Counted from the first letter of the stretch, positions 5,101-64,000 are shown. The stretch: DNA of 64,000 nt from an uncultured delta proteobacterium (GCA_963828345.1 CAWHEZ010000029.1:69582-133581); one strand, 5' to 3'. A program made the numbers and translations. Notes: a model not told the origin generated them from the sequence alone.

Positions 5101-5119
5101 AACCGCAGCCTCCATTGGA

Positions 5120-5491
5120 TCAGAGAGACGTTCTTCCTGCGACCAGACTTGCCGCAACGGCACTCAACGTGCCGACAACTTCTATGACTCGCGGATCGGC
5201 CAGGCCATAGTAAACGAACGGGCCCTCGCGCTGAATGTCCACCAACAGGCACCTCCGGAGTTCCCTCAAGTGGTGGGACACCAACGGCTGTGAGAGGCCT
5301 ACCTCCTCTACGATTCTGGTAACTGACTTTCTGGTGCCCACCATGGACATGAGAATGCGGAGTCTGTTTTCGTCTGCAATTCCCTTCGCAAGGATTGCGA
5401 CTGACCGACACCCATCGCGATCGAGCCGGCTGCCTTGGGTCTGGGTCGAGTCGGTCGCAGGACTCTTTCTCTGAGCGGTTACCCTTTTCAT
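5120..5491 (-). CDS. ArsR/SmtB family transcriptional regulator
   Basis: LAKGIADENRLRILMSMV...KSVTRIVEEVGLSQPLVSHHLRELRR is a wHTH of ArsR type. ATG 5491 is preceded by GGTGG. The track ORF starts at TTG 5512. Confidence 0.85.
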   Translation of the reverse strand: MKRVTAQRKSPATDSTQTQGSRLDRDGCRSVAILAKGIADENRLRILMSMVGTRKSVTRIVEEVGLSQPLVSHHLRELRRCLLVDIQREGPFVYYGLADPRVIEVVGTLSAVAASLVAGRTSL

Positions 5492-5532
5492 TCGCCACCG
5501 TTTTGCCGGCAAGGTTTACCCGATGCGTTAGC

Positions 5533-7846: not shown

Positions 7847-7914
7847 GGGCGGCCGTGGGTCCTTTCCGGTCGGGTGTGCGGCGCGGCGATGCGAGGATCT
7901 TTGCAGGAAAAGTC

Positions 7915-7943
7915 TTGACGCGTCGCGGGCAGCGCGCTATAAC
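7915..7943 (+). promoter_or_regulatory. Sigma70-type promoter TTGACG-N17-TATAAC for the MOT1-type transporter
   Basis: Hexamers at 7915-7920 and 7938-7943. Confidence 0.45.
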
Positions 7944-7946
7944 TGG

Positions 7947-14886: not shown

Positions 14887-15714
14887 TTACTTCGCATTCG
14901 GGGTGAACAATGGCTTCCCCATCACCTTGAAATCCCGGATGACCTTCTGCCCTTCGGCTCCGGCGATCCACGCGCTGAAGGCCTGCGCCAGGTCGAGCTT
15001 CGCCTTGGGGCACTTGGCCGGGTTCACGGCGATCACCGCGTACTGGTTCAACAGGGTCTGGTCGCCCTCGACCAGGATCTTGAGCGGCGGGTTCCCGCCC
15101 AGGGTGTTCTCGTACTTGATGTAGGTGCCGCGGTCGGCGAGCGTGTATCCGTTCTTCTCGGCCGCGATCGTGATGGTGGCCATCATGCCCTGGCCGGCCT
15201 GGGCGTACCAGGACTCCTTTTCCGGCACCGCGAGCCCGGCCGCCTTCCAGAGGTCCAGCTCCATCATGTGAGTGCCGGACTTGTCCCCGCGGCTGACGAA
15301 ACCGGCCTTTTTCGCGGCAACGGCCTCCAGAGCCTGCTTCACGCTCCGGCCCTTGACGCCGGCCGGGTCGGCCGCCGGGCCGACGATGACGAAGTCGTTG
15401 TACATGATCTCCCGGCGGTCGAGGCCGAAGCCGTCGGCCACGAACTTCTTCTCGGCGTCGGGGGCGTGAACCATGAGCACGTCCACGTCGCAGTTCTCGC
15501 CCAGCTTCAGCGCCTTGCCGGTGCCGGTGGCCGTCCAGCGCAGCTCGATGCCGCTCGCCTTCTTGAACTCCGGCGCCAGCACGTTGAGCAGCCCCGTGTC
15601 CTCCGTGCTGGTCGTGGTCGCCATCAGCAGCACTTTGTCCTGGGCGACAGCAACGCCCGCCAACAGCAGCAGGGTTGCCAACAGGCTCATCAACTGGATG
15701 AATCTGACGTTCAT
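14887..15714 (-). CDS. tupA: Tungstate ABC transporter substrate-binding protein TupA
   Basis: Signal peptide, then the TTTSTEDTGLL motif and SRGDKSGTH. Confidence 0.85.
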   Translation of the reverse strand: MNVRFIQLMSLLATLLLLAGVAVAQDKVLLMATTTSTEDTGLLNVLAPEFKKASGIELRWTATGTGKALKLGENCDVDVLMVHAPDAEKKFVADGFGLDRREIMYNDFVIVGPAADPAGVKGRSVKQALEAVAAKKAGFVSRGDKSGTHMMELDLWKAAGLAVPEKESWYAQAGQGMMATITIAAEKNGYTLADRGTYIKYENTLGGNPPLKILVEGDQTLLNQYAVIAVNPAKCPKAKLDLAQAFSAWIAGAEGQKVIRDFKVMGKPLFTPNAK

Positions 15715-16658
15715 ACGGCCTCCTTCACGATCGGTTTGTCAGCGACTGGTTTGGGGGGGAACACCATCTTGCCGGTCATGCTCAGATCGTAGCCCTCGAG
15801 CCCGTCGGTCACCATGCGGTGAAACCGCGCGTCGTGCAGCAATCCGAGGAAGCGCTGCACCGCCTCGTCGAAGAAGCGGTCCTTGGCGACCATCAGGTCG
15901 AAGCGCTCCCAGCGCAGCGGGAGGAACCCCAGGTTGAGCATGGCCGCAACCGGCCGGATCCCCGGGCCGACGTCGGCCCGGCCGGCCAGGACCTCCAGCC
16001 CGACGTCGAGATGCCGCTGCACTTCGTTGACGTAGCCGTCGAGCCGCTCGCCCTTGATCCCGGCCTTGGTCAGCTCGCGGTCCAGCAGCAGCCGGGTCCC
16101 GGTCCCCAGCTGGCGGTTGACGATGCGCAGGCCGGGCCGTCCGAGGTCCGCGACCTTCGTGATCTTCTTGGGGTTCCCCTTGGGGACGATCAATCCCTGC
16201 TCGCGCCGGCAGAAGTTGACCATGGCCGGCATGTCCTCGAGCTCGGAGGAGGCGTACGCGAAGTTGTACTCGCTCTCGTCCTCCTGCAGCAGGTGGCTGC
16301 CGGCGATCTGGCAGAGGCCGCGGCGCAGCGCGCGCAACCCGCCCATGCTCCCCAGGTTGCCGAAGACCGCGAGGTGCTGCGAGTCCAGGGTGTTGAAGAT
16401 GGATATCAAACGGTCGAGGAGCAGGTCGTTGCTGCCGGCCACGACGAGCAGCCCCTTGTAAGCGGCCGCATCGGAGGTCTGCTTCGGAAAGTTGAGCGTG
16501 TGGGTTTCGACCCACTGCTCCACGAGGTGCTGCGGGAAGAGCCACTTGCCGGTGATCTTGCTGGCGGGCAGGCCTTTCTCCGACACCAGCGTGTAGACCA
16601 TTTTCTCGTTCACGTTCAGGAACTTGGAGACTTCGCGCGTGGACATCAGCTTCGACAT
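15711..16658 (-). CDS. HTH (excisionase/MerR-type) DNA-binding domain fused to a periplasmic-binding-protein-like domain; putative oxyanion-responsive regulator of the tup operon
   Basis: N-terminal MSTREVSKFLNVNEKMVYTLVSEKGLPASKITGKWLF, with a C-terminal PBP-like domain. 4-nt overlap with the tupA start. Confidence 0.7.
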   Translation of the reverse strand: MSKLMSTREVSKFLNVNEKMVYTLVSEKGLPASKITGKWLFPQHLVEQWVETHTLNFPKQTSDAAAYKGLLVVAGSNDLLLDRLISIFNTLDSQHLAVFGNLGSMGGLRALRRGLCQIAGSHLLQEDESEYNFAYASSELEDMPAMVNFCRREQGLIVPKGNPKKITKVADLGRPGLRIVNRQLGTGTRLLLDRELTKAGIKGERLDGYVNEVQRHLDVGLEVLAGRADVGPGIRPVAAMLNLGFLPLRWERFDLMVAKDRFFDEAVQRFLGLLHDARFHRMVTDGLEGYDLSMTGKMVFPPKPVADKPIVKEAV

Positions 16659-18934: not shown

Positions 18935-19967
18935 CGGAGCGCAGCTGGCCGCAGGCGGCGAGGATATCCTGCCCCTTGCTGTGGCGCACGATGACCGTGA
19001 AGTGTTTGGCCACCAGAGCGTCCCGGAAGACGGCCACCGCGCCCTCGTCCGGGCGCTCGAAGCCGCAGTCCGGATGCGGGTTGAAGGGGATCAGGTTGAC
19101 CTTGCAGCGGATGGGCCGCAGCAGCCGCGCCAGGCGGCGGGCATCCTCGAGCGAGTCGTTCACGCCCCGGATCAGGATGTATTCGAACGTGATGCGGCGG
19201 CCCGGCGGCAGGGGGTAGCGCCGACAGGCATCCAGCAGCATGTCCAGGGGGTAGCGCCGGTTGATCGGCATCAGGCGGGTGCGGGTCTCGTCGTCGGCGG
19301 CATTCAGCGACACCGCGAGGCTCACCCGCGTGTCACGGCCGAAATCGAGCATCTTCGGCACCAGCCCGGCCGTGGACACGGTCACCCGCTTGGCCGCGAA
19401 GCCCAGCCCCACGTCGCTGTCGCAGATGAGCGACAACGCGCCGAGCAGGTTCCCGTAGTTGGCGAGCGGCTCGCCCATGCCCATGAAGACCAGGTTGGTC
19501 AGCCGCTCGGGCTCGGCGAGGTCGTGTTTGATGTCGCGCACCTGCGCCAGGATCTCGCCCTGCGTGAGGTTGCGGTGCAGCCCGCCCCTGGCCGTCAGGC
19601 AGAAGGCGCAGTTCTGGGCGCATCCCACCTGGCTGGACACGCACAGGGTGAAGTGGTCGCGCTCCGGGATGAGGACGGTTTCGATGCGCTCGCCGTCGCC
19701 GAGCTCGAAAAGGTACTTGCGGGTCCCATCGGCCGAGGTCCGGACGTCCCTGACCGCCAGGCGCGGGATGCGGAAGCTCCGGGCCAACAGCTCCCGGATC
19801 GGCTTGGCGATGTTGGTCATGTCCTCGAAGCGGTCCTTCTGGTGGCGGTAAACCCACTTCAGGATCTGCCCGGCCCGGTACGCGGCGACGTCGCGCGCCT
19901 CGAGCCAGGCCGAAATATCGGCCGGGCGAATGCTCAGAAGGTCTTGAAAAGTGTCGTCCGGTTCCAT
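18921..19967 (-). CDS. rlmN: 23S rRNA/tRNA A2503/A37 C2-methyltransferase RlmN (radical SAM)
   Basis: CxxxCxxC as GCAQNCAFC, MGMGEPLANY, conserved C-terminal CGQL. Confidence 0.95.
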   Translation of the reverse strand: MEPDDTFQDLLSIRPADISAWLEARDVAAYRAGQILKWVYRHQKDRFEDMTNIAKPIRELLARSFRIPRLAVRDVRTSADGTRKYLFELGDGERIETVLIPERDHFTLCVSSQVGCAQNCAFCLTARGGLHRNLTQGEILAQVRDIKHDLAEPERLTNLVFMGMGEPLANYGNLLGALSLICDSDVGLGFAAKRVTVSTAGLVPKMLDFGRDTRVSLAVSLNAADDETRTRLMPINRRYPLDMLLDACRRYPLPPGRRITFEYILIRGVNDSLEDARRLARLLRPIRCKVNLIPFNPHPDCGFERPDEGAVAVFRDALVAKHFTVIVRHSKGQDILAACGQLRSEMTA

Positions 19968-19999
19968 TATATTAGCGCCGTAAATGTTCCTTTATTTTC

Positions 20000-20028
20000 T
20001 TGACTTATCATTATTGCCACTGTAATTT
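20000..20028 (+). promoter_or_regulatory. Sigma70-type promoter TTGACT-N17-TAATTT upstream of ffh
   Basis: Hexamers at 20000-20005 and 20023-20028, in an AT-rich spacer. Confidence 0.5.
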
Positions 20029-20058
20029 CAAGAATTTGTAAATTCCGGATAGAAGCGC

Positions 20059-21381
20059 ATGTTCGAATCCCTGAGCGAAAAACTCGATTCCGCCTTCAAG
20101 AAGCTGCGTGGGCACGGCCGGCTGACCGAGGGCAACATCGATGAGGGCCTGAAGGAAGTCCGCATGGCCCTGCTCGAGGCCGATGTCCACTATCGGGTGG
20201 TCAAGGGCTTCATCGAGGAGGTGCGCTCGCGCTCGCTCGGCCAGGAGGTGATGGGCAGTCTCACTCCCGGCCAGCAGGTTGTCAAGATCGTTTACGAGAA
20301 GCTGACCGAGTTGATGGGGTCGCGCCACGAAGGGTTGAACCTCGGCGGCGCGCCGCCGGCGGCCATCATGCTCGTGGGGCTGCAGGGCTCGGGCAAGACG
20401 ACCACCGCGGGCAAGCTTGCGATCCAGCTGCGCAAATCGGGGCGCCGGCCCTTCCTGGTCCCGGCCGACGTCTATCGTCCGGCCGCCATCGACCAGCTGA
20501 AAACGATCGCCGAGCAGGTGGACGTCCCGGTCTTCGCGTCCACCACGGACCAGGACCCGGTGCAGATCTGCCTGGAGGCCAAGACCGGCGCGTTCCAGAA
20601 GGGGTGCGACACCCTGATCATCGATACGGCCGGGCGGCTCCACATCGACGAGGAGCTCATGGCCGAGCTCTCCCGGATCAAGGAGACCATCCGACCGGCC
20701 GACATCCTGCTGGTGGCCGACAGCATGACCGGCCAGGACGCCGTCAACATCGCCAAGTCCTTCAACGACCGGCTGGACATCAGCGGCGTGGTTCTGACCA
20801 AGATGGACGGCGATGCCCGCGGCGGCGCCGCGCTCTCCATCCGGTCGATCACGGGCAAGCCGATCAAGTTCGTGGGCGTGGGGGAAAAGCTCAGCGCGCT
20901 CGAGCCGTTCCACCCCGATCGCATGGCCTCGACCATCCTCGGCATGGGGGATGTCCTCAGCCTGATCGAAAAGGCGCAGGAGACGGTCGACCAGAAAAAG
21001 GCGCTCGAGCTCCAGAAGAAGCTGCGCAAGAGCCAGTTCACGCTCGAGGACTTCCGGGACCAGTTGGTCCAGGTGCGCAAGATGGGCTCGCTGTCCGACA
21101 TTCTCAAGATGATCCCGGGCATGGGCAAGGTCAAGGAGATCAAGAACCTCGAGATCGACGACGGCGAGTTCGTCCGGATCGAGGCGATCATCAACTCCAT
21201 GACGCCCCAGGAACGGCGGCAGCACGGCATTATCAACGGCAGCCGGCGGCGCCGTATCGCGACCGGCAGCGGCACGCGCGTGCAGGACGTCAACGGACTG
21301 CTGAAAAATTACACTCAGATGCTGAAGATGCTCAAAAAATTCAACCAAGGCGGCATCCGTCGCGGGATGCTGCCGTTCTGA
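20059..21381 (+). CDS. ffh: Signal recognition particle protein Ffh
   Basis: N/G domain with GLQGSGKTTT, DTAGR and TKMDGDARGG, followed by a Met-rich M domain. Confidence 0.97.
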   Translation: MFESLSEKLDSAFKKLRGHGRLTEGNIDEGLKEVRMALLEADVHYRVVKGFIEEVRSRSLGQEVMGSLTPGQQVVKIVYEKLTELMGSRHEGLNLGGAPPAAIMLVGLQGSGKTTTAGKLAIQLRKSGRRPFLVPADVYRPAAIDQLKTIAEQVDVPVFASTTDQDPVQICLEAKTGAFQKGCDTLIIDTAGRLHIDEELMAELSRIKETIRPADILLVADSMTGQDAVNIAKSFNDRLDISGVVLTKMDGDARGGAALSIRSITGKPIKFVGVGEKLSALEPFHPDRMASTILGMGDVLSLIEKAQETVDQKKALELQKKLRKSQFTLEDFRDQLVQVRKMGSLSDILKMIPGMGKVKEIKNLEIDDGEFVRIEAIINSMTPQERRQHGIINGSRRRRIATGSGTRVQDVNGLLKNYTQMLKMLKKFNQGGIRRGMLPF

Positions 21382-21657: not shown

Positions 21658-21772
21658 CCGCCGCCCCGCGCCTCATCCGACCTGCCACGCCTGCATCCCG
21701 ACGCGATCGTGCCGCATCCGCGCGCATGAATCTCGTTGTCGTGTTCGCAACGGCTCACCGGAGGGGACGCCC

Positions 21773-22003
21773 ATGAAAGATCTGGTCACTCGCATCGCAC
21801 AGGCGCTGGTGGATCACCCCGAGCAGGTCAGCGTCACCGAACTGGAAGGGAACCAGACCACCGTGTTGGAGCTCAAGGTCGCCAAGGAAGACCTGGGGAA
21901 AGTGATCGGGAAAGAGGGTCGCAACGCCCGGGCCATGCGCACGATCCTGGGGGCGGCGGCCGCGAAGATCAAGAAACGCACGGTCTTGGAAATCATCGAG
22001 TAG
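21773..22003 (+). CDS. KH-domain RNA-binding protein (YlqC/UPF0109)
   Basis: [17 protein letters not shown]; conserved position between rpsP and rimM. Confidence 0.9.
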
Positions 22004-22006
22004 CTC

Positions 22007-22525
22007 GTGATGGACGAGGGGCACATCCTGATCGGCCGCGTCGTCGGCGTGCACGGCATCCGCGGGGGGCTCAAGCTGGTTTCCTACGCCGAGTCGCTCG
22101 CGGTCTTCGCTCCTGGATGCCGCCTTCTGGCGGTTTCCCCCGGGGGGGTGGAGAGCACCGTGGAGGTCCTCGAGGCCCGGCCCCAGGGTCGGGCAGCCGT
22201 CCTGTTCGTTCAGGGGGTGACCGACCGGGGCCGCGCCGAGACGCTGGTCGGCTACGACCTGTTCATCGAGCGGCGGGAGCTGCCCGCTCTGCCCGACGGG
22301 ACCTACTACTGGGCGGACCTGACAGGCCTGGAGGTTTACGGCGCCGACGGGGAGCACCTCGGGGCCATCCGGTCGATTTTCGCGACCGGCAGCAACGACG
22401 TGTACGTGGTCGCGCTCGGCGACCGGGAAATCCTCCTGCCGGCCACCCGTGCGGTGGTTCGCAAGGTGGACCTTGGAGCGCGACGCATGGACGTGACGGT
22501 GCCCGAAGGCCTCGAGCCGGAGTGA
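22007..22525 (+). CDS. rimM: 16S rRNA processing protein RimM
   Basis: IGRVVGVHGIRGGLKL...GTYYWADLTGLEV...NDVYVV. Confidence 0.93.
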   Translation: MMDEGHILIGRVVGVHGIRGGLKLVSYAESLAVFAPGCRLLAVSPGGVESTVEVLEARPQGRAAVLFVQGVTDRGRAETLVGYDLFIERRELPALPDGTYYWADLTGLEVYGADGEHLGAIRSIFATGSNDVYVVALGDREILLPATRAVVRKVDLGARRMDVTVPEGLEPE

Positions 22526-22528
22526 GAC

Positions 22529-23335
22529 GTGCGGGTTCTCGTGCTCACGATTTTCCCGGAACTGGTGGCTGCACTGTGGTCGCACGGCATGGTGCGCCGT
22601 GCGGTCGAGCAGCGGGCGGTATCCGCGCAGGCTCTCAACATCCGGGACTTCGCTCCGGACCGGCACCACGTGACCGACGACCGGCCCTATGGGGGCGGCT
22701 GCGGGATGGTGATGAAGCCGGAGCCGCTGGCCGCCGCCCTGCGCCACGCGCAGGAGACCGCGCCCGGGGCCCGCACGATCCTGATGTCCCCCCAGGGCCG
22801 GCGGTTCGACCAGGCGATCGCGCGCGAGCTGTCCGGGCTGCCGGGGTTGATCCTCGTCTGCGGGCGTTACGAGGGGGTGGACGACCGGCTGATCGGGGGC
22901 CTGATCGATGAGGAGCTCTCGATCGGGGACTACGTCCTGACCGGCGGCGAGCTCGCCGCCATGGCGGTCGTCGACGCGGTGACACGGCTGATCCCGGGCG
23001 TCCTCGGCGGCGAGGAATCGGCCGAACGCGACTCGTTCTCGGACGGGCTGCTCGAGCACGGGCACTACACGCGGCCGCCGGTGTTCGAGGGCGACGCGGT
23101 GCCCGAGGTCCTGCTGAGCGGTCACCATGCGCGCATCGAACGCTGGCGACTGGAATCCTCGCTCATGCGCACCTTCGTCAACCGCCCCGACCTGTTGCAG
23201 GCGCGGCCCATGAGCCCGGAGGAAAAGGAAATCCTCGCGGGCTGGCAAGCGGGGTTGCGCCGCCTGATCGGGGGCGCCGGCGCGGACGAGGCTGCGCCGC
23301 CGGAGGCGCGGAAATCCCGGCGCAAACGCGGCTGA
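22529..23335 (+). CDS. trmD: tRNA (guanine37-N1)-methyltransferase TrmD
   Basis: VDDRPYGGGCGMVMKPEP, CGRYEGVDDR, SIGDYVLTGGE. Confidence 0.96.
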   Translation: MRVLVLTIFPELVAALWSHGMVRRAVEQRAVSAQALNIRDFAPDRHHVTDDRPYGGGCGMVMKPEPLAAALRHAQETAPGARTILMSPQGRRFDQAIARELSGLPGLILVCGRYEGVDDRLIGGLIDEELSIGDYVLTGGELAAMAVVDAVTRLIPGVLGGEESAERDSFSDGLLEHGHYTRPPVFEGDAVPEVLLSGHHARIERWRLESSLMRTFVNRPDLLQARPMSPEEKEILAGWQAGLRRLIGGAGADEAAPPEARKSRRKRG

Positions 23336-23339
23336 GCGC

Positions 23340-23912
23340 ATGCACCCGGTCTACGCGGCGCTCGTGCACTATCCCGTGGTCGACCGCACCGGCCAAGTGA
23401 TTGCCGCGGCGCTGACGAACCTGGACCTGCACGACCTCGCCCGGCTCGCGCGCACCTATGGGATGGGCGGCGTTTACGTGGTCACGCCGCTGGAGGACCA
23501 GCAGGAGTTCGCGCGGCGGATCGTGAGCCATTGGACCACCGGCCCCGGGGCCGAGCACATCCCGGACCGGCGGGCGGCCATGCAGCTCGTGCGGGTCGTC
23601 GCTACGATCGCGGATGCCGCCGCGGACGTCGAAGCCCGCGAGGGGCGACGCCCGCGGGTGACGGCCAGCGGCGCGCGCGCGCTCCCGGGCGCAGTCCGCC
23701 ACGCCGACTGGCGCGACCTCCGATCGGCGGCGCCGCAGCTGCTGCTCTTCGGCACGGCCTGGGGCCTCGCACCGGAGGTCTTCGCCGCGGCCGACTGCGT
23801 GCTGCAACCGATCGCGGGAACGGGCGCGTACAACCACCTGTCGGTGCGCTCCGCGGCGGCGATCCTGATCGACCGCCTGCTCGGAGGCCCGGCATCGGGT
23901 CGTGCCTATTGA
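23340..23912 (+). CDS. Putative SPOUT-class RNA methyltransferase (DUF-type, between trmD and rplS)
   Basis: ALVHYPVVDRTGQVIAAALTNLDLHDLAR...LLFGTAWGL...YNHLSVRSAAAI. Confidence 0.6.
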   Translation: MHPVYAALVHYPVVDRTGQVIAAALTNLDLHDLARLARTYGMGGVYVVTPLEDQQEFARRIVSHWTTGPGAEHIPDRRAAMQLVRVVATIADAAADVEAREGRRPRVTASGARALPGAVRHADWRDLRSAAPQLLLFGTAWGLAPEVFAAADCVLQPIAGTGAYNHLSVRSAAAILIDRLLGGPASGRAY

Positions 23913-40668: not shown

Positions 40669-41916
40669 TCACCTCCGCGTGTCGCACGTGAACTGGGCAA
40701 TGGGTTTCTTGTCGAAGCGCGCGAACTCCATGACCGACTCGATTTCGACCTGGGGCTTGCCCTGGGCCATGCCGACCGAAATCACGAAGTCGAAGCACTG
40801 GTCCGAAGGGACCTCCTTGCGGAAGGTCTCCTCCAGCTCGCGCATGCCGTGCTCCCGGAAGTCGGCCGTGAACTTGTCCAGGATGCGCTGGGCCTCGTCC
40901 AGGTCCGAAAACGGCAGGATCGTGGCGAACTCGTTGATGGACTGGCGCGTGGAGAAGCCGCCGACGGCCCCGAAGTGCTTGCGGATGTAGTTGCCGAGCG
41001 AGCGCAGCGTCTGCTGCGCGGCGTCGTGGCCGAGGCCGGAGCTGACCTCCTCCATGTTGTCGAAACTGAACATCAGCACGGCGTAGGACTCGTCCGCCCC
41101 GCGGCGGGCCAGTTCCGTCTGGTAGCGGATCTTGAAGTGCCGACTCGAGACCAGCCCGGTGATGTCTTCCTGCAGATTCTCGAGGCTCTGCACGATCTCG
41201 GTGCGGAAGGGGTGGTCGAGGTTGTCCAGCTCCTCGGGCGGGCCCTCGTAGACGATCTTCTTCTGGTAGAGGGCCAGGATGCGGTTGGAGATGAAGAAGA
41301 CGTCCGGGATCTCGTGGCTGATGAGGACCGCGGTGAACCCGAAGCGCTTCTTGTACTCGGCGATCATGCCCAGGATCGCGTTCTTGCGGATCGGGTCCTG
41401 GCCGGTCGTCGGCTCGTCGAAGAGCACGATCTGCGGGTCGGTCACGAGCGCCCGCGCCAGTGCGGCGCGCTTCTGCATGCCCCCCGAAATCTGGGACGGG
41501 TATTTGTGCGCGACCTCGGTCAGCTCGGTCTGCTGGATGCGCGTCATGACCTTCTGGTCGATCTCCCGGCGGCTCAGGCGCGTGGTGTGCTTCAACGGCA
41601 GGGCGACGTTCTCGTAGACCGTCATCGCGTCGAACAGGGCGTTGTTCTGGAACATGTAGCTGATGCGGCCGATGTAGGCGTCCCAGTCCTGGCGGTTCAT
41701 GCGCTGAATGGGGACCCCCTGGTAGAGGATCTCGCCCGCGTCGGGCGTGAGCAGCCCGATGATGTGCTTGAGGGTGACGCTCTTGCCCGTGCCGCTCAGG
41801 CCGATGATGGTCGTGACCTCACCCTCGTAGATCTTGAAGTTGACCCCTTCCAGGATGGTCCTCTCCCCGAACCGTTTCGTGACGTTGCGAAACTCGATCA
41901 GCGGTTGCCGTTCCAT
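40669..41916 (-). CDS. MlaF-type ABC ATPase fused to a C-terminal degenerate GGDEF-like domain
   Basis: Residues 1-250 have Walker A GLSGTGKS, ISGGMQKRAALARAL and FDEPTTGQD. Residues 260-415 read ITGLVSSRHF...SFDNMEEVSSGLGHDAA...TRQSINEFATILP...A..I, a GGDEF fold with SINEF in place of GGDEF. Confidence 0.75.
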   Translation of the reverse strand: MERQPLIEFRNVTKRFGERTILEGVNFKIYEGEVTTIIGLSGTGKSVTLKHIIGLLTPDAGEILYQGVPIQRMNRQDWDAYIGRISYMFQNNALFDAMTVYENVALPLKHTTRLSRREIDQKVMTRIQQTELTEVAHKYPSQISGGMQKRAALARALVTDPQIVLFDEPTTGQDPIRKNAILGMIAEYKKRFGFTAVLISHEIPDVFFISNRILALYQKKIVYEGPPEELDNLDHPFRTEIVQSLENLQEDITGLVSSRHFKIRYQTELARRGADESYAVLMFSFDNMEEVSSGLGHDAAQQTLRSLGNYIRKHFGAVGGFSTRQSINEFATILPFSDLDEAQRILDKFTADFREHGMRELEETFRKEVPSDQCFDFVISVGMAQGKPQVEIESVMEFARFDKKPIAQFTCDTRR

Positions 41917-58449: not shown

Positions 58450-59712
58450 ATGAGCGTTCCGGGCGACAGGGACTGGTCCTCTTCCGTAAAAGACACCCCC
58501 CTGTCCTCTTGGGCCGACCGGTTCGAATCGGTGCATGAATTTCAGGCCGCACCGGACGGCGAGCACGTGGCGGCCATTGTGAAGACCGGCGAGTCCGAGT
58601 TTGCGGCCTGCGTTGACGGCGATCTCTGGCCCGAGCGCTTCGACAAAATGTGGCACCTGCGCTACGCTCCCGACGGCCGGCTGTGCGCCCTGGTGTCCAC
58701 GGGCGGGGAATGGACGGTCGCCGTCGACGGGGTCCCCTGGGGAAACCGTTTCGGCTACGCCTGGAACACCCTCTTCAGCCCGGACGGCGGGCACATCGCA
58801 GTCGCTTTCCAGCAGGACATGGCCTACGGGATGGCCTGCGACGACCTGCCCTGGGAGACCACCTACCCCAATCTCACCCACCCCGCGTTGAGCCCGGACG
58901 GGAGGCACACCGCAGCCGTGGTCCAGGCGGAACCCTTGGGCGAGGCGGACCTCCAGAAATACCAGCAGGGCCTCTACACGGTGGCTGCCGACGGAGCCCC
59001 CTGGGGCAAGAACTTCGTCAACGTCTGGAAGACCGCCTTCAGCCCGGACGGCGCCTCGCTGGCGGCCGAAACCCGCCTCAGCCTCTACGACTACACCATT
59101 GCCGTCAACGGGACCCCCTGGGGGCAGACGTTCGGCGGCGTCTGGGAGCCGGTGTTCAATCCCGGCAGCGGAACCGTGGCCGCACCGGTGCGCATCCAGG
59201 GGAAGTGGGCGCTCGCCCAGGACGGCCGGGAGATCTGGGAACGGCGATTCGTCCAACTCTGGCACCTGACATTTTCTCCGAACGGCCGGCGCCTGGCCGC
59301 GATCGTCGCCCCGAGCTTCGGCCGCTGGACGGTGGCGGTCGACGGGGTCCCCTGGCCGGTAACCGTCGGCGAGATGGTGACCGACCTGGTGTTCAGCCCG
59401 GACGGGGCCCGCGTCGCCGCGGCCGTCAAGGACCGGGGGCGATGGAGCCTGGGAGCCGATGGGCGGCTCTGGCACACCACCTTCGACATGGTGCGGAAAC
59501 CCGTATTCTCACCGGACGGCCGGCACCTGGCGGCCGCGGTCCAGCGGCAGGGAGTGTACACCGTGGCCGTCGACGACCGGGTGTGGGCGCGGGACTGCGA
59601 GGCGGCCTGGGACCCGGTTTTCAGCCCCGACGGCGGCAGCCTGCTGCTGCGCACCATCGAAGGCGGAACCTACTTCCGGCGGGTCATGCCGGTTGCCGAC
59701 ATCACCGGATAG
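58450..59712 (+). CDS. tmcD: Tryptophan-rich repeat protein (about 10 W..FSPDG..A beta-propeller-like repeats), TmcD-like
   Basis: Repeats such as WNTLFSPDGGHIAV, WKTAFSPDGASLAA, VFSPDGRHLAA; first gene of the Tmc-type cluster. Confidence 0.6.
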   Translation: MSVPGDRDWSSSVKDTPLSSWADRFESVHEFQAAPDGEHVAAIVKTGESEFAACVDGDLWPERFDKMWHLRYAPDGRLCALVSTGGEWTVAVDGVPWGNRFGYAWNTLFSPDGGHIAVAFQQDMAYGMACDDLPWETTYPNLTHPALSPDGRHTAAVVQAEPLGEADLQKYQQGLYTVAADGAPWGKNFVNVWKTAFSPDGASLAAETRLSLYDYTIAVNGTPWGQTFGGVWEPVFNPGSGTVAAPVRIQGKWALAQDGREIWERRFVQLWHLTFSPNGRRLAAIVAPSFGRWTVAVDGVPWPVTVGEMVTDLVFSPDGARVAAAVKDRGRWSLGADGRLWHTTFDMVRKPVFSPDGRHLAAAVQRQGVYTVAVDDRVWARDCEAAWDPVFSPDGGSLLLRTIEGGTYFRRVMPVADITG

Positions 59713-59720
59713 GGGGGCGC

Positions 59721-60380
59721 ATGGGCGAACTCTACCGCTGGGCCACCGGCCCGCTCGTGTGGGCGGCGTTCATCATCTTCATCGGCGGCAGCCTGTTCCG
59801 CTTGGCCCAGCTCGTCCGGATGGTCCACCGCAAGGAACGGTTCATTTACTCCTACATGAGCCTCCCCTACGGCCTGCGGTCGATTCTGCACTGGCTGACG
59901 CCCTTCGGCACGGCGACGTGGCGCCTCCACCCCTGGCTCACGGTCGTCACCTTCGCCTTTCACATCTGCCTGGTGCTGACGCCCATTTTCCTGCTGGCGC
60001 ACATCGTCCTGTGGGACGAGGCGTGGAACCTGAGCTGGCGGGCCATTCCGGACGGACTGGCCGTCGGCATGTCGCTGGTCGTCATCGGCGGAGGCCTGTT
60101 CTTCGGCATCCGGCGGCGGGTCGTGCCGGAGGTCGCCTACGTGACCTCGGCCTCCGACTATGTGATCCTCGTGCTCACGGTCGCCCCGTTCGCAACGGGG
60201 CTGATCGCCTACTTTCAATGGTTCGACGTGCGGCTCTTCACGCTGCTGCACGTTCTGACCGGGGAGGCCATGCTCGTCGCCATTCCCTTCACGCGGATCC
60301 GCCACATGCTCTATGCACCGCTGACCCGGGCGTACATGGGCAGCGAGTTCGGGGGAGTGCGCCATGCCCGCGACTGGTGA
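59721..60380 (+). CDS. tmcC: Membrane di-heme cytochrome b (NarI/DsrM/TmcC family)
   Basis: Five to six TM helices, conserved His (LHPWLTVVTFAFHICL, LLHVLTGEAMLVAIPFTRIRHM). Confidence 0.75.
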   Translation: MGELYRWATGPLVWAAFIIFIGGSLFRLAQLVRMVHRKERFIYSYMSLPYGLRSILHWLTPFGTATWRLHPWLTVVTFAFHICLVLTPIFLLAHIVLWDEAWNLSWRAIPDGLAVGMSLVVIGGGLFFGIRRRVVPEVAYVTSASDYVILVLTVAPFATGLIAYFQWFDVRLFTLLHVLTGEAMLVAIPFTRIRHMLYAPLTRAYMGSEFGGVRHARDW

Positions 60381-60472
60381 ACCGGCCCGGGATCGCGGAA
60401 CGCAGCCCGGCACACGCCCCCCTTTGATTCCCTGGGCCCGAGTCCGGGGGAACCGGATGGAGATCGACGCCG

Positions 60473-61808
60473 ATGGCCACTGAAGCAGGCAAGCCGAAGG
60501 ACCCGATGCGGGACGAGGGGCTGGAGCGCGGCGTGGCCGGCCTGACGGAGGAGAAGATCCGCCGGGTGATCCGCCGGGTGATCGACTCCGAAACCGGCGC
60601 TCGCCTCAAGGCCTACGTCGACACCTGCGTGCACTGCGGCCTGTGTTCCGATGCCTGCCACTTCTTCCTCTCGCGCGACCGCGACCCCCGGTATTCCCCG
60701 GTGGGGAAGGTCAAGCAGACCCTCTGGGAAATGCTGCGCCGGGACGGGAAGGTCAGCCCCGACGTTCATCCGCCAGGCGCGCATCGTCGCCTCCACGCAC
60801 TGCAACCTCTGCAAGCGCTGCGCCATGTACTGCCCGTTCGGCATCGACGTGGCCTACCTGATGCTGGTGGTCCGGCGCATCTGCCATCTGCTCGGCGTCA
60901 CCCCGCTCTACATCCAGGACACGGCCCACAGCCACGCCGCCACGTTCAACCAGATGTGGGTCAAGGACGACGAGTGGATCGACACGCTGCAGTGGCAGGA
61001 AGAGGAAGCGCAGGCGGAGCTTCCCTCGCTGCGCATCCCGCTCGACAAGGAGGGGGCCGACATCATGTATTCGGTGATCGGCCCCGAGCCGAAGTTCCAG
61101 GCCCAGCTCATCTATCAGGCCGCCGTCATCATGAACGTGGCCGGAGTCAACTGGACGATGCCGGCCACTCCGGGCTGGGACAACAGCGACATGGCCATGT
61201 TCACCGGCGACAACGAGATCATGGGCCGCATCAAACGCGCCCACTTCGAAACCGCCGCCCGGCTGCGGGTCAAGCGCATCGTCATGGGGGAGTGCGGCCA
61301 CGCCTTCCGCTCGGTCTACGACGTGGGCAACCGCTGGCTGGGATGGAGCATGCCCCCGATCCCGATTGTGCACGCCATCGACTTTTACCATGAGCTGCTG
61401 ACCCAGGGCCGCATCACCATCGCCCGGAAATTCGAGGACACCGTGACGCTGCACGATCCCTGCAACGTCTCGCGCGGCGCCGGCTTGCACGAAAAGGCCC
61501 GCGAGGTCGTCCGCCGGATGTGCGCGAACTTCGTCGAGATGGAACCCAACCGCGAGCACAACTACTGCTGCGGGGCCGGCGGCGGCGTCATCAACTGCGG
61601 CCCGCCTTACAAAAAAGGGCGGATCGAGAGCACCCGGGTCAAGGCCGAGCAGATATCGGCGGCCAAAGTGAAGGGCGCCAAAGTGGTGATCACCCCCTGT
61701 CACAACTGTCACAGCGGCATCGAAGACATCATCCACCACTACGACCTCGGGGTCGAAACCAAGTTCCTGGGGGACATTCTCTACGAGGTGATGGACAAAC
61801 CCGCCTGA
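60473..61808 (+). pseudogene. tmcB: HdrD/DsrK/TmcB-type cytoplasmic Fe-S protein with CCG domains, +1 frameshift ~60764
   Basis: CVHCGLCSDACHF in ORF 60473.., then FIRQARIVASTHCNLCKRCAMYCPFG...DPCNV...CCGAGGG...TPCHNCH in ORF 60651..61808. Confidence 0.75.
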
Positions 61809-61844
61809 ACCCCAGCCCTCGGCGAAACGACGGAAGGAGGAGGC

Positions 61845-62972
61845 ATGAAAACATTCTTCGACCTGATTCAGGATGTCCAGAAACCCGGATTATGCCACCG
61901 CTGCGGGGGGTGCGTCACCTTCTGCAGCTCCGTCAACTACGGCGCCCTGGAGCTGGACGCCGACGGCAAGCCGCGCTACGGGGAAATCGAGAAGTGCATC
62001 GAGTGCGGGTTGTGCCATGCCATCTGCCCCGAGATCGACGAGCTCGAGAAGGAAACCCGCGAGCGCGTGGGCTGGACGGCGCCCATCGGCCGCGTGATCG
62101 AGACCACCGTTGCGCGCGCCGCCGACCCGGCCGTTCGGCGCGCGGCCACGGACGGCGGCGTCGTGACCGCGTTGCTGCTGCACCTGCTCGAGCGCGGGCG
62201 GATCGACGGGGCCATCGTCACCAAGCAGGACGGGCCGTTCCGGCGCCGCCCGTTTCTGGCGACGACCACCGAGGAGATCAAGCAGGCGGCCGGCTTCTTC
62301 TTCGACACCTCGCACGGCATGAAGGACTTCGGGGACCGCTACATGACCCACTCGCAGATCGAGGAGTTCGACCCCATGCTGAAGAAGGGGTTGAAGCGGG
62401 TCGCCTTCGTGGGGACGCCCTGCCAGGTCAAGTCCGTCCGCCGCATGCAGACGCTCGGCCTCGTTCCCGCCGACGCCGTCCATATCTGCCTGGGGCTCTT
62501 CTGTTCGGGCAACTTCACCTTCGGGGAGGAGCAGCGACAGCGCTTGGCGGAACTCGGCGAGTTCGCCTGGGACGACGTCCGCAAGATCAACATCAAGGAC
62601 GATCTCCAGCTTCACCTCCGCAGCGGACCGACCCGCAGCATCGCCTTGGACGATCTCGATTTCATGCGCCGCCACGCATGCCGCTACTGCCCCGACTACA
62701 CGGCCGAGTTCGCGGACATCGCTTTCGGCGGAATCGGCGCCGAGGAGGGCTGGACCACCGTGGTGGCCCGCTCGCCCCTGGGCCGGGCGGCGTTTGCCGA
62801 TGCCGCCGGGGCGGGCAAACTGGAGGAGTTCAGCCGCACGGTGAACCCGAGCTTTGCCACCCAGGCCATGACGAAGATCCGGACCTGGTCGGCCCGCAAA
62901 CGCAAGACCGCGCAGCAGAACCGGAAACAGCTCGCCAAGAAGGGCGTGCGGGTCAAGGCGGGAGCGGCATAA
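61845..62972 (+). CDS. FrhB/FdhB/FpoF-family (coenzyme F420 hydrogenase/dehydrogenase beta-like) flavo-Fe-S protein
   Basis: N-terminal 2x[4Fe-4S] motifs (CHRCGGCVTFC, CIECGLCHAICPE). FrhB_FdhB core: GGVVTALLLHLLE, VGTPCQV, CRYCPDYTAEFADIAFGG. Confidence 0.8.
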   Translation: MKTFFDLIQDVQKPGLCHRCGGCVTFCSSVNYGALELDADGKPRYGEIEKCIECGLCHAICPEIDELEKETRERVGWTAPIGRVIETTVARAADPAVRRAATDGGVVTALLLHLLERGRIDGAIVTKQDGPFRRRPFLATTTEEIKQAAGFFFDTSHGMKDFGDRYMTHSQIEEFDPMLKKGLKRVAFVGTPCQVKSVRRMQTLGLVPADAVHICLGLFCSGNFTFGEEQRQRLAELGEFAWDDVRKINIKDDLQLHLRSGPTRSIALDDLDFMRRHACRYCPDYTAEFADIAFGGIGAEEGWTTVVARSPLGRAAFADAAGAGKLEEFSRTVNPSFATQAMTKIRTWSARKRKTAQQNRKQLAKKGVRVKAGAA

Positions 62973-62993
62973 CCGCGGGTGAGGAGACGCACC

Positions 62994-63380
62994 ATGAAAC
63001 GCACGAGTATCGTCGGGGTCATCGCGGTGGTCGCCGCGCTTCTATCGGCGGCCGGCGTGAGTTCGCAGGAGAATCTGAAAATTCTTCGTCCGGATGCGTT
63101 CCCGAACGCGCAGCGCCCGCCGGTGGCCTTCGTACACGACGCACACAACGAAATGGCCAAGCTCGACGCCTGCAACGAGTGCCACCACGTCTACGGCGAC
63201 GACGGTCAACGGATTCCGGACGAGTCCTCTGAGGACAGGTCGTGCTCCGAGTGCCACGGGCTCCAGGATGAGGGGCGTAAACCCGGGTTGATGAAGGCGT
63301 TTCACCTGAACTGCAAGGGGTGTCACCAGACGCACACCAAGGGCCCGGTGATGTGCGGGGAGTGCCACGCGCGGCGGTAG
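62994..63380 (+). CDS. tmcA: Periplasmic tetraheme cytochrome c3 (TmcA-like)
   Basis: Signal peptide and four CxxCH motifs (CNECH, CSECH, CKGCH, CGECH). Confidence 0.85.
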   Translation: MKRTSIVGVIAVVAALLSAAGVSSQENLKILRPDAFPNAQRPPVAFVHDAHNEMAKLDACNECHHVYGDDGQRIPDESSEDRSCSECHGLQDEGRKPGLMKAFHLNCKGCHQTHTKGPVMCGECHARR

Positions 63381-63501
63381 CCCGCGGCAGCCCGGTCGGC
63401 GCTCACGCAACCGGAGGGGGCGAACACCCCCTGCGGGCCGTCATCCGGCGCGCGTGGGAGCGCCGTGTTTCGAAAACCCTTAAACCCATGAGGGGCCGCA
63501 C

Positions 63502-63852
63502 ATGCCCAAAAAGATCCTGATCGTCGACGACGACCCCATCATCGTCAAGTACCTGCAGGCGGTGTTCAGCGACAACGGCTATGCCACCTGCAACGCCTCG
63601 AGCAGCATGGAGGGGCTCGAGCTCGTGCGCCGCGAAATGCCCGACCTGATCACGCTGGACATCCAGATGCCCGGAGAGTGGGGCCCGCGGTTCTACCGCA
63701 GGCTGCGCCAGGACAAGGAATTGCGCGAGATCCCGGTGATCGTCATCAGCGGCATCGACGGGGATCACGCCGTCAAGGATGCGGTGGCGTTCGTCAAGAA
63801 GCCGTTCGACCCGGAGAAGCTGATCGGCATCGTCAAGAACACGATCGGCTGA
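63502..63852 (+). CDS. Single-domain response regulator (CheY-like receiver)
   Basis: KILIVDDD...DLITLDIQMPG...VIVISG...KKPF. Confidence 0.9.
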   Translation: MPKKILIVDDDPIIVKYLQAVFSDNGYATCNASSSMEGLELVRREMPDLITLDIQMPGEWGPRFYRRLRQDKELREIPVIVISGIDGDHAVKDAVAFVKKPFDPEKLIGIVKNTIG

Positions 63853-63859
63853 CCCCGCC

Positions 63860-64000
63860 CTATAAGCCGCCGCCCTCCGGGCAGCCGCACCACCACGGTC
63901 GTTCCCATGCCGGGGCGGCTGTGCACCTCGATAGTGCCCGCGTGCTGGTCGACGATCCGTTTGGCCATCATCAATCCGATGCCGGTGCCCTCGGTCCCCT
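63860..64000 (-). CDS. Sensor histidine kinase, C-terminal HATPase_c end (5' part outside window); probable frameshift ~63880
   Basis: GTEGTGIGLMMAKRIVDQHAGTIEVHSRPGMGTTVVVRLP. As called (stop 63765) it would overlap the response regulator by 88 nt. Skipping one C gives RLPEGGGL* with stop 63860-63862. Confidence 0.6.

What the first reader, a model, noticed from the sequence alone, without database searches (positions are those of the whole stretch)
58450..63380. Tmc-type transmembrane redox complex in inverted gene order with an inserted FrhB-family flavo-Fe-S subunit
- **All four components present.** These are a Trp-rich repeat protein (TmcD-like, 58450-59712), a NarI-like cytochrome b (TmcC, 59721-60380), an HdrD/DsrK-like CCG protein (TmcB, 60473-61808) and a periplasmic tetraheme c3 (TmcA, 62994-63380).
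- **Order and extra gene.** The order here is D-C-B-X-A instead of A-B-C-D. X (61845-62972) is an FrhB/FdhB/FpoF-family protein with two N-terminal [4Fe-4S] motifs and a flavin/deazaflavin-binding core.
- **Inference.** A cytoplasmic flavoprotein module could be attached to TmcB, giving the complex a soluble-cofactor (NAD(P)H-, ferredoxin- or F420-like) entry or exit point that the canonical complex lacks.
- **Neighbours.** A receiver-only response regulator and a histidine kinase follow.
Basis: partly seen in the sequence, partly recalled or inferred. Interest (0 to 1): 0.65.

Follow-up and report, generated by a model that had tools for sequence, protein, structure and literature searches.

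The report
Tmc operon with extra flavoprotein gene
This is an ordinary, normally ordered Tmc membrane electron-transfer operon of an uncultured sulfate reducer that has picked up, between two of its genes, a duplicated FrhB-like flavin/iron-sulfur subunit borrowed from a cytoplasmic hydrogenase-heterodisulfide-reductase cluster; the insertion is real and selected but confined to one small lineage, has been lost repeatedly, and its role is unproven.

Summary
TmcD, TmcC and TmcA pass NCBIfam equivalog cut-offs, and so does TmcB once repaired.

Two corrections:
- tmcB is split in this window by one extra G at 60764. Conspecific assemblies have an intact 444-aa TmcB, so this is an assembly error.
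- The "inverted" order D-C-B-A-DivK is the normal order. It appears in all 61 related Desulfobacterales species loci and in a Desulfovibrionaceae MAG.

The inserted FrhB-like gene X is the real novelty.
- **Rarity:** X sits between tmcB and tmcA in only 2 of 61 species-representative loci, plus the window's own species and about 10 metagenome contigs.
- **Origin:** Tmc-linked copies form one clade (375 aa, ending ..GAA). Its sister and deeper relatives lie in HdrA-MvhD-(Sec-HdrD-like)-X-Mvh/Vhu-type [NiFe] hydrogenase clusters.
- **Selection and spacing:** dN/dS is 0.09-0.15, and X starts 25-41 nt after tmcB.
- **Loss:** Two sister lineages retain only deletion remnants of X; others lack it cleanly.

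X most likely acts as a plug-in flavo-Fe-S module co-expressed with Tmc, possibly wired to TmcB. A spare isoform for the soluble Hdr/Mvh complex is nearly as likely. The substrate (NAD(P)H, ferredoxin or F420) cannot be told. I rate it a new variant of a known system, of moderate interest.

The parts
58450..59712 (+). tmcD: cytoplasmic Trp-rich beta-propeller subunit and first gene of the operon
   Evidence: NCBIfam NF045725 TmcD 575 bits (cut-off 440). PD40/WD40 repeats. 21 Trp in 420 aa.
59721..60380 (+). tmcC: NarI/HmcE-like membrane cytochrome b anchor
   Evidence: NF045723 TmcC 317 bits (cut-off 240). HmcE 180 bits, below its 275 cut-off. Pfam PF02665.
60473..61808 (+). tmcB: HdrD-like protein with two [4Fe-4S] motifs and a CCG domain. 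It is split here by a 1-nt insertion at 60764 that is very probably an assembly error.
   Evidence: The two pieces score 118.6 and 689.4 bits on NF045724. An extra G at 60764 is present relative to L004/L005. The intact 444-aa orthologue in L004 scores 836 bits against cut-off 735.
61845..62972 (+). X: FrhB/FdhB-family flavo-iron-sulfur protein. It has an N-terminal 2x[4Fe-4S] ferredoxin domain (about 1-83), an FrhB core (about 84-330) and a basic C-terminal helix (337-365). It is an insertion specific to one Desulfatibacillum-like clade.
   Evidence: Pfam PF04422 and PF04432. PDB sequence hits 8rja_E and 8riu_B at E 5e-40 and 8e-37. AlphaFold2 core pLDDT is mostly 72-97, apart from a low-confidence loop at 151-171, and Foldseek gives 8riu_B, 8rja_E and FrhB (target-normalised TM-score 0.85). 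Clade and context. dN/dS 0.09-0.15. A GGAGGAGG ribosome-binding site precedes the ATG, 36 nt after the tmcB stop.
62994..63380 (+). tmcA: periplasmic acidic tetrahaem cytochrome c3 (alternative GTG start at 62979)
   Evidence: NF045722 153 bits (cut-off 114) and Pfam PF02085. CxxCH motifs at residues 60, 84, 107 and 121, plus an N-terminal hydrophobic leader.
63502..63852 (+). DVU0259/DivK-family receiver-only response regulator. It follows tmcA in nearly all tmc loci.
   Evidence: NF045717 182 bits (cut-off 160). Synteny across the related tmc loci.
63861..64000 (-). 3' end of a convergent 379-aa receiver+HATPase_c gene, which runs off the window. It is part of the conserved two-component block next to tmc.
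   Evidence: Gene calls in the conspecific loci L003-L006. A 69-aa ORF at 63765-63974 on the minus strand has a HATPase-like C-terminus.

Best explanation
**Shown**
- The region is a canonical tmcD-tmcC-tmcB-tmcA operon in its normal order, followed by its usual DivK-type regulator. The host is an uncultured Desulfatibacillum-like Desulfobacterales bacterium.
- In the ancestor of one small clade, a gene was duplicated and inserted between tmcB and tmcA. The source gene encodes the FrhB/FdhB-like flavo-Fe-S subunit of a cytoplasmic cluster: HdrA-MvhD-(Sec-HdrD-like)-X-Mvh/Vhu-type [NiFe] hydrogenase.
- The copy is kept under purifying selection in some descendants and deleted in others.

**Inferred**
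- X is co-transcribed with tmc and acts as a plug-in module. It would carry three [4Fe-4S] clusters plus a flavin.
- Its N-terminal ferredoxin domain would dock onto the cytoplasmic Fe-S chain of TmcB, the HdrC/HdrB-like subunit.
- This would give the TmcA-TmcC-TmcB wire a flavin site that exchanges two electrons with a soluble cytoplasmic carrier.
- Electrons could then run from periplasmic cytochrome c3 to that carrier. They could also run from the carrier to TmcB's CCG site (DsrC reduction) or out to the periplasm.
- The carrier is undetermined. NAD(P)H or ferredoxin seem more likely than F420 in this phylum.
For: **Tmc identity**
- Equivalog scores exceed cut-offs for TmcA, TmcC and TmcD and for repaired TmcB.

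**Normal gene order**
- 61 Desulfobacterales species loci and a Desulfovibrionaceae MAG all read D-C-B-A.

**X is an FrhB-family module**
- Its three-part architecture matches that of the structurally characterised plug-in modules 8riu_B and 8rja_E (PMC11493965).
- Those modules are anchored to their host enzyme through the N-terminal ferredoxin domain (PMC11493965).

**Single origin**
- All 375-aa "..GAA" proteins form one clade.
- Every member whose context could be read is TmcB-X-TmcA-DivK.
- The sister clade is Hdr/Mvh-linked.
- Both paralogs occur in one genome, GCA_964427375.1, at 74.5% identity.

**Operon membership**
- The TmcB-X gap is 25-41 nt in 11 of 12 loci. The twelfth, L015, gave a nominal 4-nt overlap from its scanned tmcB frame.
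- A ribosome-binding site precedes X, and no plus-strand terminator or promoter hit lies inside the operon.

**Selection**
- dN/dS is 0.09-0.15, and X is intact at 375 codons in 9 loci checked.

**Link to CCG proteins**
- In the nearest paralog clusters X also directly follows an HdrD-like CCG gene.

**Precedents**
- FrhB-family subunits feed Hdr in the Elp-Hdr and Fdh-Hdr complexes (PMC12350162).
- The cytoplasmic partner of Tmc is still open in the literature (PMC4215793).
Against: - No physical or structural evidence exists for an X-TmcB contact.
- In deeper relatives X follows HdrA-MvhD with no CCG protein. The family's constant neighbour is therefore HdrA/MvhD, not an HdrD-like protein.
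- Only four residues (R133, Q171, H277, A321) and the C-terminal GAA distinguish the Tmc-linked clade from its sister. None lies in the N-terminal docking domain, so there is no sign of adaptation to a new partner.
- X has been lost at least four times inside the clade while tmc stayed intact. Two of those losses left deletion remnants. X is therefore dispensable for Tmc.
- 57 of 61 species loci never show X.
Confidence: 0.42

Rival explanations
1. Spare isoform. The Tmc-linked X still works in the soluble HdrA-MvhD-(HdrD-like)-Mvh hydrogenase complex encoded elsewhere, as an alternative subunit. Sitting in the tmc operon only places it under the tmc/DivK regulatory regime. It does not bind Tmc.
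For: - Across the whole family X's constant neighbours are HdrA and MvhD.
- The Tmc-linked clade differs from its Hdr/Mvh-linked sister at only 4 fixed residues plus a 3-residue tail. The N-terminal ferredoxin domain has no fixed change.
- A genome with the Tmc-linked copy also keeps the Hdr/Mvh-linked copy. That redundancy would explain the repeated, tolerated loss.
Against: - Insertion in the middle of an operon for one membrane complex, with 25-41-nt spacing conserved across species, is an unusual place for a subunit of a different complex.
- The paralogs in one genome are only 74.5% identical, and the Tmc-linked copy has been under purifying selection for a long time. This argues for a distinct role.
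Confidence: 0.3
2. Bridge. X links TmcB to a soluble HdrA-MvhD unit, tethering a flavin-based electron-bifurcating module to the membrane Tmc complex.
For: - X-family proteins are adjacent to HdrA/MvhD in all other contexts, and to HdrD-like CCG proteins in the closest ones.
- FrhB-family subunits (ElpB, FdhB) pass electrons to HdrA through Fe-S chains in solved complexes (PMC12350162).
Against: No hdrA or mvhD gene lies within 10 kb of tmc in the conspecific loci. There is no direct evidence, and the idea needs two simultaneous interfaces on a 375-aa protein.
Confidence: 0.1
3. Passenger. X is a neutral or decaying hitch-hiker in the operon with no current function.
For: Independent internal deletions in L010 and L011, and clean absences in L016, L038, L048 and L073, all inside the X-bearing clade.
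Against: - dN/dS is 0.09-0.15.
- The reading frame is a full 375 codons in every retained copy checked.
- All Fe-S cysteines are invariant.
Confidence: 0.05
4. A rearranged (inverted) Tmc cluster marks a structurally novel complex, or else the cluster is really a DsrMK/Hme variant.
For: None beyond the lettering A-D not matching the order on the DNA.
Against: - D-C-B-A-DivK is universal in the 61 species loci and in a Desulfovibrionaceae MAG.
- The D. vulgaris locus tags, DVU0263 (TmcA) to DVU0266 (TmcD) with DVU0259 as DivK, show the same adjacency (PMC10920352).
- DsrK (208 against 400), HmcF (365 against 750) and HmcE (180 against 275) are all below their cut-offs.
Confidence: 0.02

Closest known systems
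TmcABCD transmembrane complex of Desulfovibrio vulgaris / D. alaskensis (Pereira et al. 2006; Price et al. 2014, PMC4215793)
   Same: All four subunits are present and pass NCBIfam equivalog cut-offs. Gene adjacency and the downstream DVU0259-type regulator are the same. The expected function is the same: electron transfer between periplasmic cytochrome c3 and the cytoplasm through haems c, haems b, Fe-S clusters and a CCG site.
   Different: An extra 375-aa FrhB-like gene lies between tmcB and tmcA. It is absent from 57 of 61 related species loci and from the Desulfovibrionaceae locus examined.
HdrA-MvhD-(Sec-HdrD-like)-'FdhB/FrhB-like'-Mvh/Vhu-type [NiFe] hydrogenase clusters of Desulfobacterales; HdrA-MvhD-FdhB loci were described for Desulfobacterium autotrophicum HRM2 (PMC2702500)
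   Same: X is 59-81% identical to the FrhB-like subunit of these clusters and is the sister of one of their clades. Domain layout and cysteines are the same. In the closest clusters X also follows an HdrD-like CCG gene.
   Different: There is no hdrA, mvhD or hydrogenase gene next to X here. The neighbours are tmcB and tmcA. The Tmc-linked clade has a 3-residue longer C-terminus (..GAA) and four clade-specific residues.
F420-reductase plug-in modules (the ACDS zeta subunit and FwdI) of Ca. Ethanoperedens thermophilum, PDB 8RIU and 8RJA (PMC11493965)
   Same: These are the best PDB matches in both sequence and fold. [quoted passage not shown] The concept is the same: an FrhB-type module bolted onto an unrelated redox enzyme to give it a soluble two-electron cofactor.
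   Different: Sequence identity is only 25-27%. Those are archaeal and proven to use F420. Here the host is a bacterium of a phylum not mentioned in the 2021 review of F420 distribution, and the partner enzyme is unproven.
[quoted passage not shown]
   Same: They are FrhB-family flavo-Fe-S subunits that inject electrons into a heterodisulfide-reductase system. TmcB is an HdrC/HdrB-type protein.
   Different: In those complexes electrons enter through MvhD/ElpC and HdrA, which are absent from the tmc operon. The donor there is F420H2.
FpoF/FqoF input module of F420H2 dehydrogenase (recalled from background knowledge)
   Same: It is an FrhB-family subunit with an N-terminal 2x[4Fe-4S] domain that connects a soluble hydride carrier to a membrane complex. 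X aligns over residues 8-320 with the FpoF models.
   Different: X scores 90 bits against the FpoF cut-off of 475, so it is not an orthologue. The membrane complex here is Tmc, not an Nuo-type complex.

Membership tests
Tmc complex (TmcABCD) | TmcA: periplasmic tetrahaem type II cytochrome c3 | tested here: met
   NF045722 153 bits against cut-off 114. Four CxxCH motifs and an N-terminal hydrophobic leader.
Tmc complex (TmcABCD) | TmcB: cytoplasmic HdrD-like protein with two [4Fe-4S] motifs and a CCG domain | tested here: met
   The intact conspecific orthologue scores 836 bits against cut-off 735. The window copy is split by a 1-nt insertion at 60764, which I judge an assembly error.
Tmc complex (TmcABCD) | TmcC: NarI/HmcE-type membrane cytochrome b | tested here: met
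   NF045723 317 bits against cut-off 240.
Tmc complex (TmcABCD) | TmcD: Trp-rich cytoplasmic protein | tested here: met
   NF045725 575 bits against cut-off 440. Trp content is 5.0%.
Tmc complex (TmcABCD) | The four proteins form one membrane complex that is reduced by hydrogenase and type I cytochrome c3 | not testable with these tools
   This is biochemical. It is known only for D. vulgaris (cited in PMC4215793).
DsrMK / Hme / Hmc (alternative filing) | The CCG subunit and the membrane subunit are orthologous to DsrK/DsrM or HmcF/HmcE | tested here: not met
   DsrK 208 against 400, HmcF 365 against 750, HmcE 180 against 275.
FrhB/FdhB protein family (Pfam PF04422 + PF04432) | Both family domains score above the Pfam gathering score | tested here: met
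   73.3 bits against 22 and 128.5 bits against 23.3.
FrhB/FdhB protein family (Pfam PF04422 + PF04432) | FrhB fold with conserved core cysteines for a [4Fe-4S] cluster next to the flavin site | tested here: met
   Foldseek matches FrhB 9r51_B and 4ci0_C with target-normalised TM-score 0.85 and E about 1e-20. C193, C215, C220, C279 and C282 are invariant in 53 homologues. Cofactor binding itself is inferred.
F420-dependent enzymes (FrhB proper, FpoF, Fsr-N, ElpB) | Orthology to a characterised F420-using member | tested here: not met
   FrhB TIGR03289 144 against 331.5, PRK09325 170 against 269, FpoF 90.6 against 475.
F420-dependent enzymes (FrhB proper, FpoF, Fsr-N, ElpB) | Uses F420, and the organism makes F420 | not testable with these tools
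   No sequence motif for F420 is defined; the site is described only as a positively charged cleft (PMC10229431). The genome outside the window cannot be queried. The 2021 review of F420 distribution (PMC8498797) does not mention Deltaproteobacteria or Desulfobacterota. The FrhB-family member HCAR (5dqr) is a chlorophyll-pathway reductase rather than an F420 enzyme (ferredoxin dependence recalled from background knowledge).
Subunit of the Tmc complex (the claim for X) | Gene co-conserved and co-oriented inside the tmc operon | tested here: met
   It is met within one clade only. Every context-resolved member of the 375-aa clade is TmcB-X-TmcA. However, X is present in only 2 of 61 species loci and has been lost repeatedly.
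Subunit of the Tmc complex (the claim for X) | Physical interaction with TmcB, TmcC or TmcD | not testable with these tools

The most novel reading that the evidence does not exclude
X docks on TmcB and turns Tmc into a reversible oxidoreductase between cytochrome c3 and a soluble two-electron carrier. That would be a direct transmembrane wire between the periplasmic cytochrome pool and a cytoplasmic hydride carrier or ferredoxin. Candidates for the carrier are NAD(P)H or a deazaflavin-like cofactor. Such a wire could let this Desulfatibacillum-like lineage push cytoplasmic reducing equivalents outward during syntrophic growth. It could also feed DsrC reduction from a soluble donor. This would name a cytoplasmic partner for a Tmc-type complex for the first time.
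Probability: 0.25. Interest if true: 0.65.

Novelty: new variant of a known kind. Interest (0 to 1): 0.42.

Why it matters
The cytoplasmic redox partner of Tmc (and of Hmc) is still unsettled; DsrC and ferredoxin have both been proposed (PMC4215793). A lineage in which selection keeps a flavin/Fe-S module inside the tmc operon offers a natural experiment. If X binds TmcB, it shows how HdrD-type CCG subunits can be coupled to soluble carriers. It would also extend the "FrhB module as universal plug-in" theme, recently established for archaeal CODH, Fwd and Hdr complexes, to a bacterial respiratory membrane complex.

The repeated gain-then-loss pattern also gives matched genomes, with and without X, for comparative physiology. 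If X is only a relocated isoform of the Hdr/Mvh complex, the finding is a minor regulatory curiosity.

Tried and rejected
- **Inverted order as a feature.** Rejected. All 61 species loci and a Desulfovibrionaceae MAG have D-C-B-A.
- **tmcB pseudogene.** Rejected. The 1-nt insertion at 60764 is absent from two 99.4%-identical assemblies. Each of these assemblies carries its own scattered frameshifts in different genes.
- **DsrMK/Hme/Hmc filing.** Rejected on the NCBIfam cut-offs.
- **X as the FrhB of an Frh (group 3a) hydrogenase.** Rejected. The hydrogenase subunits next to the paralogs match VhuG/VhuA (Mvh type) better than FrhG/FrhA. X is also below the FrhB equivalog cut-off.
- **First TmcD alignment of 19 sequences.** Too diverse for the locus scan; it worked with 8 sequences.
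- **Search for an F420-specific motif.** None is defined in the Fsr and Frh structure papers.
- **Literature searches for a Tmc-FrhB/F420 link.** Nothing relevant turned up.
- **Pereira et al. 2011.** The comparative-genomics paper is not held.
- **Other remnants of X.** None found in tmc loci with 186-470-nt TmcB-TmcA gaps (L023, L034, L043, L045, L062).
- **Rest of the window.** Sampled for F420 or hydrogenase genes; only housekeeping and transport genes were found.

Full report
**1. What is in the sequence**

Window 58450-63852 carries six co-directional plus-strand ORFs.
- NCBIfam equivalog models identify TmcD (575 bits, cut-off 440), TmcC (317/240) and TmcA (153/114). They also identify a DVU0259/DivK-family receiver protein (182/160).
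- The ORF between tmcB and tmcA, at 61845-62972, I call X. It has Pfam FrhB_FdhB_N (73 bits) and FrhB_FdhB_C (128 bits), preceded by two Cys4 ferredoxin motifs.
- It stays below the equivalog cut-offs for FrhB (144/331) and FpoF (91/475).
- TmcA has four CxxCH motifs and a hydrophobic leader. TmcD has 21 Trp in 420 residues.
- Upstream, on the opposite strand, lie a class I fumarate hydratase and a pyruvate:ferredoxin oxidoreductase.

**2. Two corrections to the observation**

First, tmcB is not a single ORF in the window.
- The stated interval 60473-61808 is 1336 nt and is read in two frames.
- The same organism occurs in other metagenome assemblies at 99.4% identity (L003-L006).
- Comparison shows one extra G at 60764. 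A second extra G at 57685 splits the fumarase gene.
- L004 and L005 encode an intact 444-aa TmcB scoring 836 bits against cut-off 735.
- Each of these assemblies has its own frameshifts in other genes. I therefore treat the frameshift as consensus error, not biology.

Second, the order D-C-B-A is not an inversion.
- I scanned one genome per GTDB species with a TmcD profile, which returned 80 Desulfobacterales loci.
- I then located all six window proteins in them by tblastn.
- Every locus long enough has TmcD-TmcC-TmcB-TmcA on one strand, nearly always followed by DivK. This holds for all 61 loci that contain both TmcB and TmcA.
- A Desulfovibrionaceae MAG shows the same order.
- The D. vulgaris locus tags agree: DVU0263 is TmcA, DVU0266 is TmcD and DVU0259 is DivK (PMC10920352).
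- The letters A-D follow the history of the proteins, not the order of transcription.

**3. The extra gene is real, rare and clade-specific**

- Among the 61 species loci, X lies between tmcB and tmcA in only two, L014 and L015. The other 59 have TmcB-TmcA gaps of 9-470 nt.
- X's homologues at 65% identity or more are numerous in Desulfobacterales.
- In an NJ tree, all 375-aa proteins ending ..K(A/S)GAA form one clade. It contains the window protein and the L014 and L015 copies.
- Every member whose context could be read is TmcB-X-TmcA-DivK. This covers L090-L092, L096-L101, L103, L108 and L118.

**4. Where X came from**

The sister clade (372 aa; 74-81% identical) and all deeper relatives lie in three other contexts.
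- Context (b): HycI-HdrA-MvhD-HdrD-like-X-[NiFe] small subunit-[NiFe] large subunit.
- Context (c): the same cluster without the HdrD-like gene.
- Context (d): HdrA-X with no hydrogenase.

Further details on these clusters:
- The hydrogenase subunits match VhuG/VhuA (Mvh type) better than FrhG/FrhA.
- The "HdrC-like" and "HdrB-like" ORFs of context (b) are one gene with an in-frame TGA. The TGA aligns with a Cys of TmcB's ..GECGHAF.. stretch, so this is a selenocysteine HdrD-like protein.
- HdrA-MvhD-"FdhB" loci were already noted in Desulfobacterium autotrophicum HRM2 (PMC2702500).
- One genome, GCA_964427375.1, carries both the Tmc-linked copy (L014) and the Hdr/Mvh-linked copy (L008). They are 74.5% identical.

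The Tmc-linked X is therefore a paralog. It arose once, by duplication of the Hdr/Mvh-associated subunit, within a Desulfatibacillum-like lineage.

**5. Retention and loss**

- Where X is kept, it is under purifying selection. dN/dS between the window copy and seven others is 0.09-0.15, and nine copies checked are uninterrupted at 375 codons.
- It starts 25-41 nt after the tmcB stop in 11 of 12 loci. The twelfth, L015, gave a nominal 4-nt overlap from its scanned tmcB frame. In the window it has a GGAGGAGG ribosome-binding site.
- No plus-strand terminator-like or promoter-like site lies inside the operon.
- In a TmcB tree, X-bearing and X-less loci are interleaved within one clade.
- L010 and L011 are the nearest neighbours of the X-bearing L097 and L014. 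Between tmcB and tmcA they retain the first ~100-130 nt and the last ~200-280 nt of X.
- Their internal deletions of about 900 nt have different end points. These are independent losses.
- L016 and the L038/L048/L073 group lack X cleanly.

X is thus useful but dispensable for the Tmc operon.

**6. What X looks like**

[quoted passage not shown] Both come from Ca. Ethanoperedens. They give E = 8e-37 and 5e-40 over the full length.
- Next come FrhB, Fsr, ElpB/FdhB and HCAR.
- An AlphaFold2 model has mean pLDDT 74. The core is mostly confident, apart from a low-confidence loop at 151-171. The cofactor-dependent N-terminal domain is poorly predicted.
- Foldseek on the model gives the same ranking, with a target-normalised TM-score of 0.85 to FrhB.
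- X has the same three parts, including a confidently predicted C-terminal helix at 337-365.
- In the Elp-Hdr and Fdh-Hdr complexes, FrhB-family subunits inject electrons into a heterodisulfide reductase (PMC12350162).

**7. How it most likely works**

Shown:
- X is an FrhB-type flavo-Fe-S module.
- It is encoded inside a normal tmc operon.
- It derives from an Hdr/Mvh-associated paralog.
- It is selected where it is present.

Inferred, at roughly 0.4 confidence:
- X is made together with Tmc and docks on TmcB's cytoplasmic Fe-S chain.
- It would add a flavin site that exchanges two electrons with a soluble carrier.

The argument for this rests on three points.
- X sits in the middle of an operon for a single complex.
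- In its closest paralog clusters it also follows an HdrD-like CCG gene.
- There are structural precedents for FrhB modules as plug-ins.

The argument against rests on four points.
- The family's constant neighbours are HdrA and MvhD rather than CCG proteins.
- Only R133, Q171, H277, A321 and the GAA tail are specific to the Tmc-linked clade. No fixed change lies in the N-terminal docking domain.
- X has been lost repeatedly.

The main rival, at about 0.3, is that X remains a subunit isoform of the soluble Hdr/Mvh complex and is merely co-regulated with tmc.

The substrate cannot be assigned.
- No F420 motif is defined (PMC10229431).
- The 2021 review of F420 distribution does not mention Deltaproteobacteria or Desulfobacterota.
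- The FrhB-family member HCAR is a chlorophyll-pathway reductase rather than an F420 enzyme (its ferredoxin dependence is recalled from background knowledge).

**8. Novelty and verdict**

- Three literature searches found no report of an FrhB-like gene in a tmc operon.
- Known Tmc variation concerns loss of TmcA in the syntrophic Seep-SRB1 groups (PMC10553843).
- The finding is a new variant of a known system. It is confined to a small uncultured lineage, and its functional meaning is open.
- It bears on a real open question, the cytoplasmic partner of Tmc (PMC4215793), but does not settle it.
- Interest is moderate, at 0.42.

Noticed in passing
window 60764 and 57685: Two single-base insertions, each an extra G, relative to 99.4%-identical assemblies of the same organism. 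They split tmcB and the class I fumarate hydratase gene. The sister assemblies have their own frameshifts in other genes, so these are probably long-read consensus errors.
   Followed up: yes
L007 6681-7979 (TGA at 7410-7412); also L008, L093, L102 and other context (b) loci: The "HdrC-like" and "HdrB-like" ORFs upstream of the Hdr/Mvh-linked X paralog are one HdrD-like gene with an in-frame TGA. The TGA aligns with a Cys of TmcB's ..GECGHAF.. stretch, so this is a probable selenocysteine-containing HdrD-like protein.
   Followed up: partly
L010 13425-13647; L011 10442-10656: Deletion remnants of the FrhB-like gene (its 5' and 3' ends only) lie between tmcB and tmcA in two species. The end points differ, so these are independent losses.
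   Followed up: yes
L120-L126, L129-L138, L140-L165 (about 35 metagenome loci): Members of the same FrhB-like family (59-66% identical to the window X) directly follow a divergent HdrA (about 48-50% identical to the L007 HdrA used as query), with no MvhD or hydrogenase match nearby. In L122 the next genes are a 152-aa protein with no family match and a divergent molybdopterin oxidoreductase with its Fe-S subunit.
   Followed up: partly
L003-L005 about 19348-21128 (roughly 8 kb downstream of tmc, outside the window): A second HdrD/HmcF-like CCG protein (460-468 aa, 37% identical to TmcB) lies next to a 225-aa gene on the minus strand. This may be another membrane redox pair.
   Followed up: no
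window 6767-16658: A cluster of molybdate/tungstate-type uptake and regulation genes: a TOBE-domain protein, an MFS_MOT1 transporter, two PBP_like_2 binding proteins and a PBP_like+HTH_17 regulator.
   Followed up: no
window 40669-41916 (-): A 415-aa ORF combines an ABC-transporter ATPase domain with a GGDEF diguanylate-cyclase domain, which is an uncommon fusion.
   Followed up: no
window 21755-23341 (-) and 2398-5512: A 528-aa ORF has no Pfam match at 1e-8 and a lower third-position GC (0.75 against about 0.9 for its neighbours). A stretch of genes at 2.4-5.5 kb also has low GC3 (0.63-0.74), including a DsbD-like thiol:disulfide protein. These may be acquired DNA.
   Followed up: no
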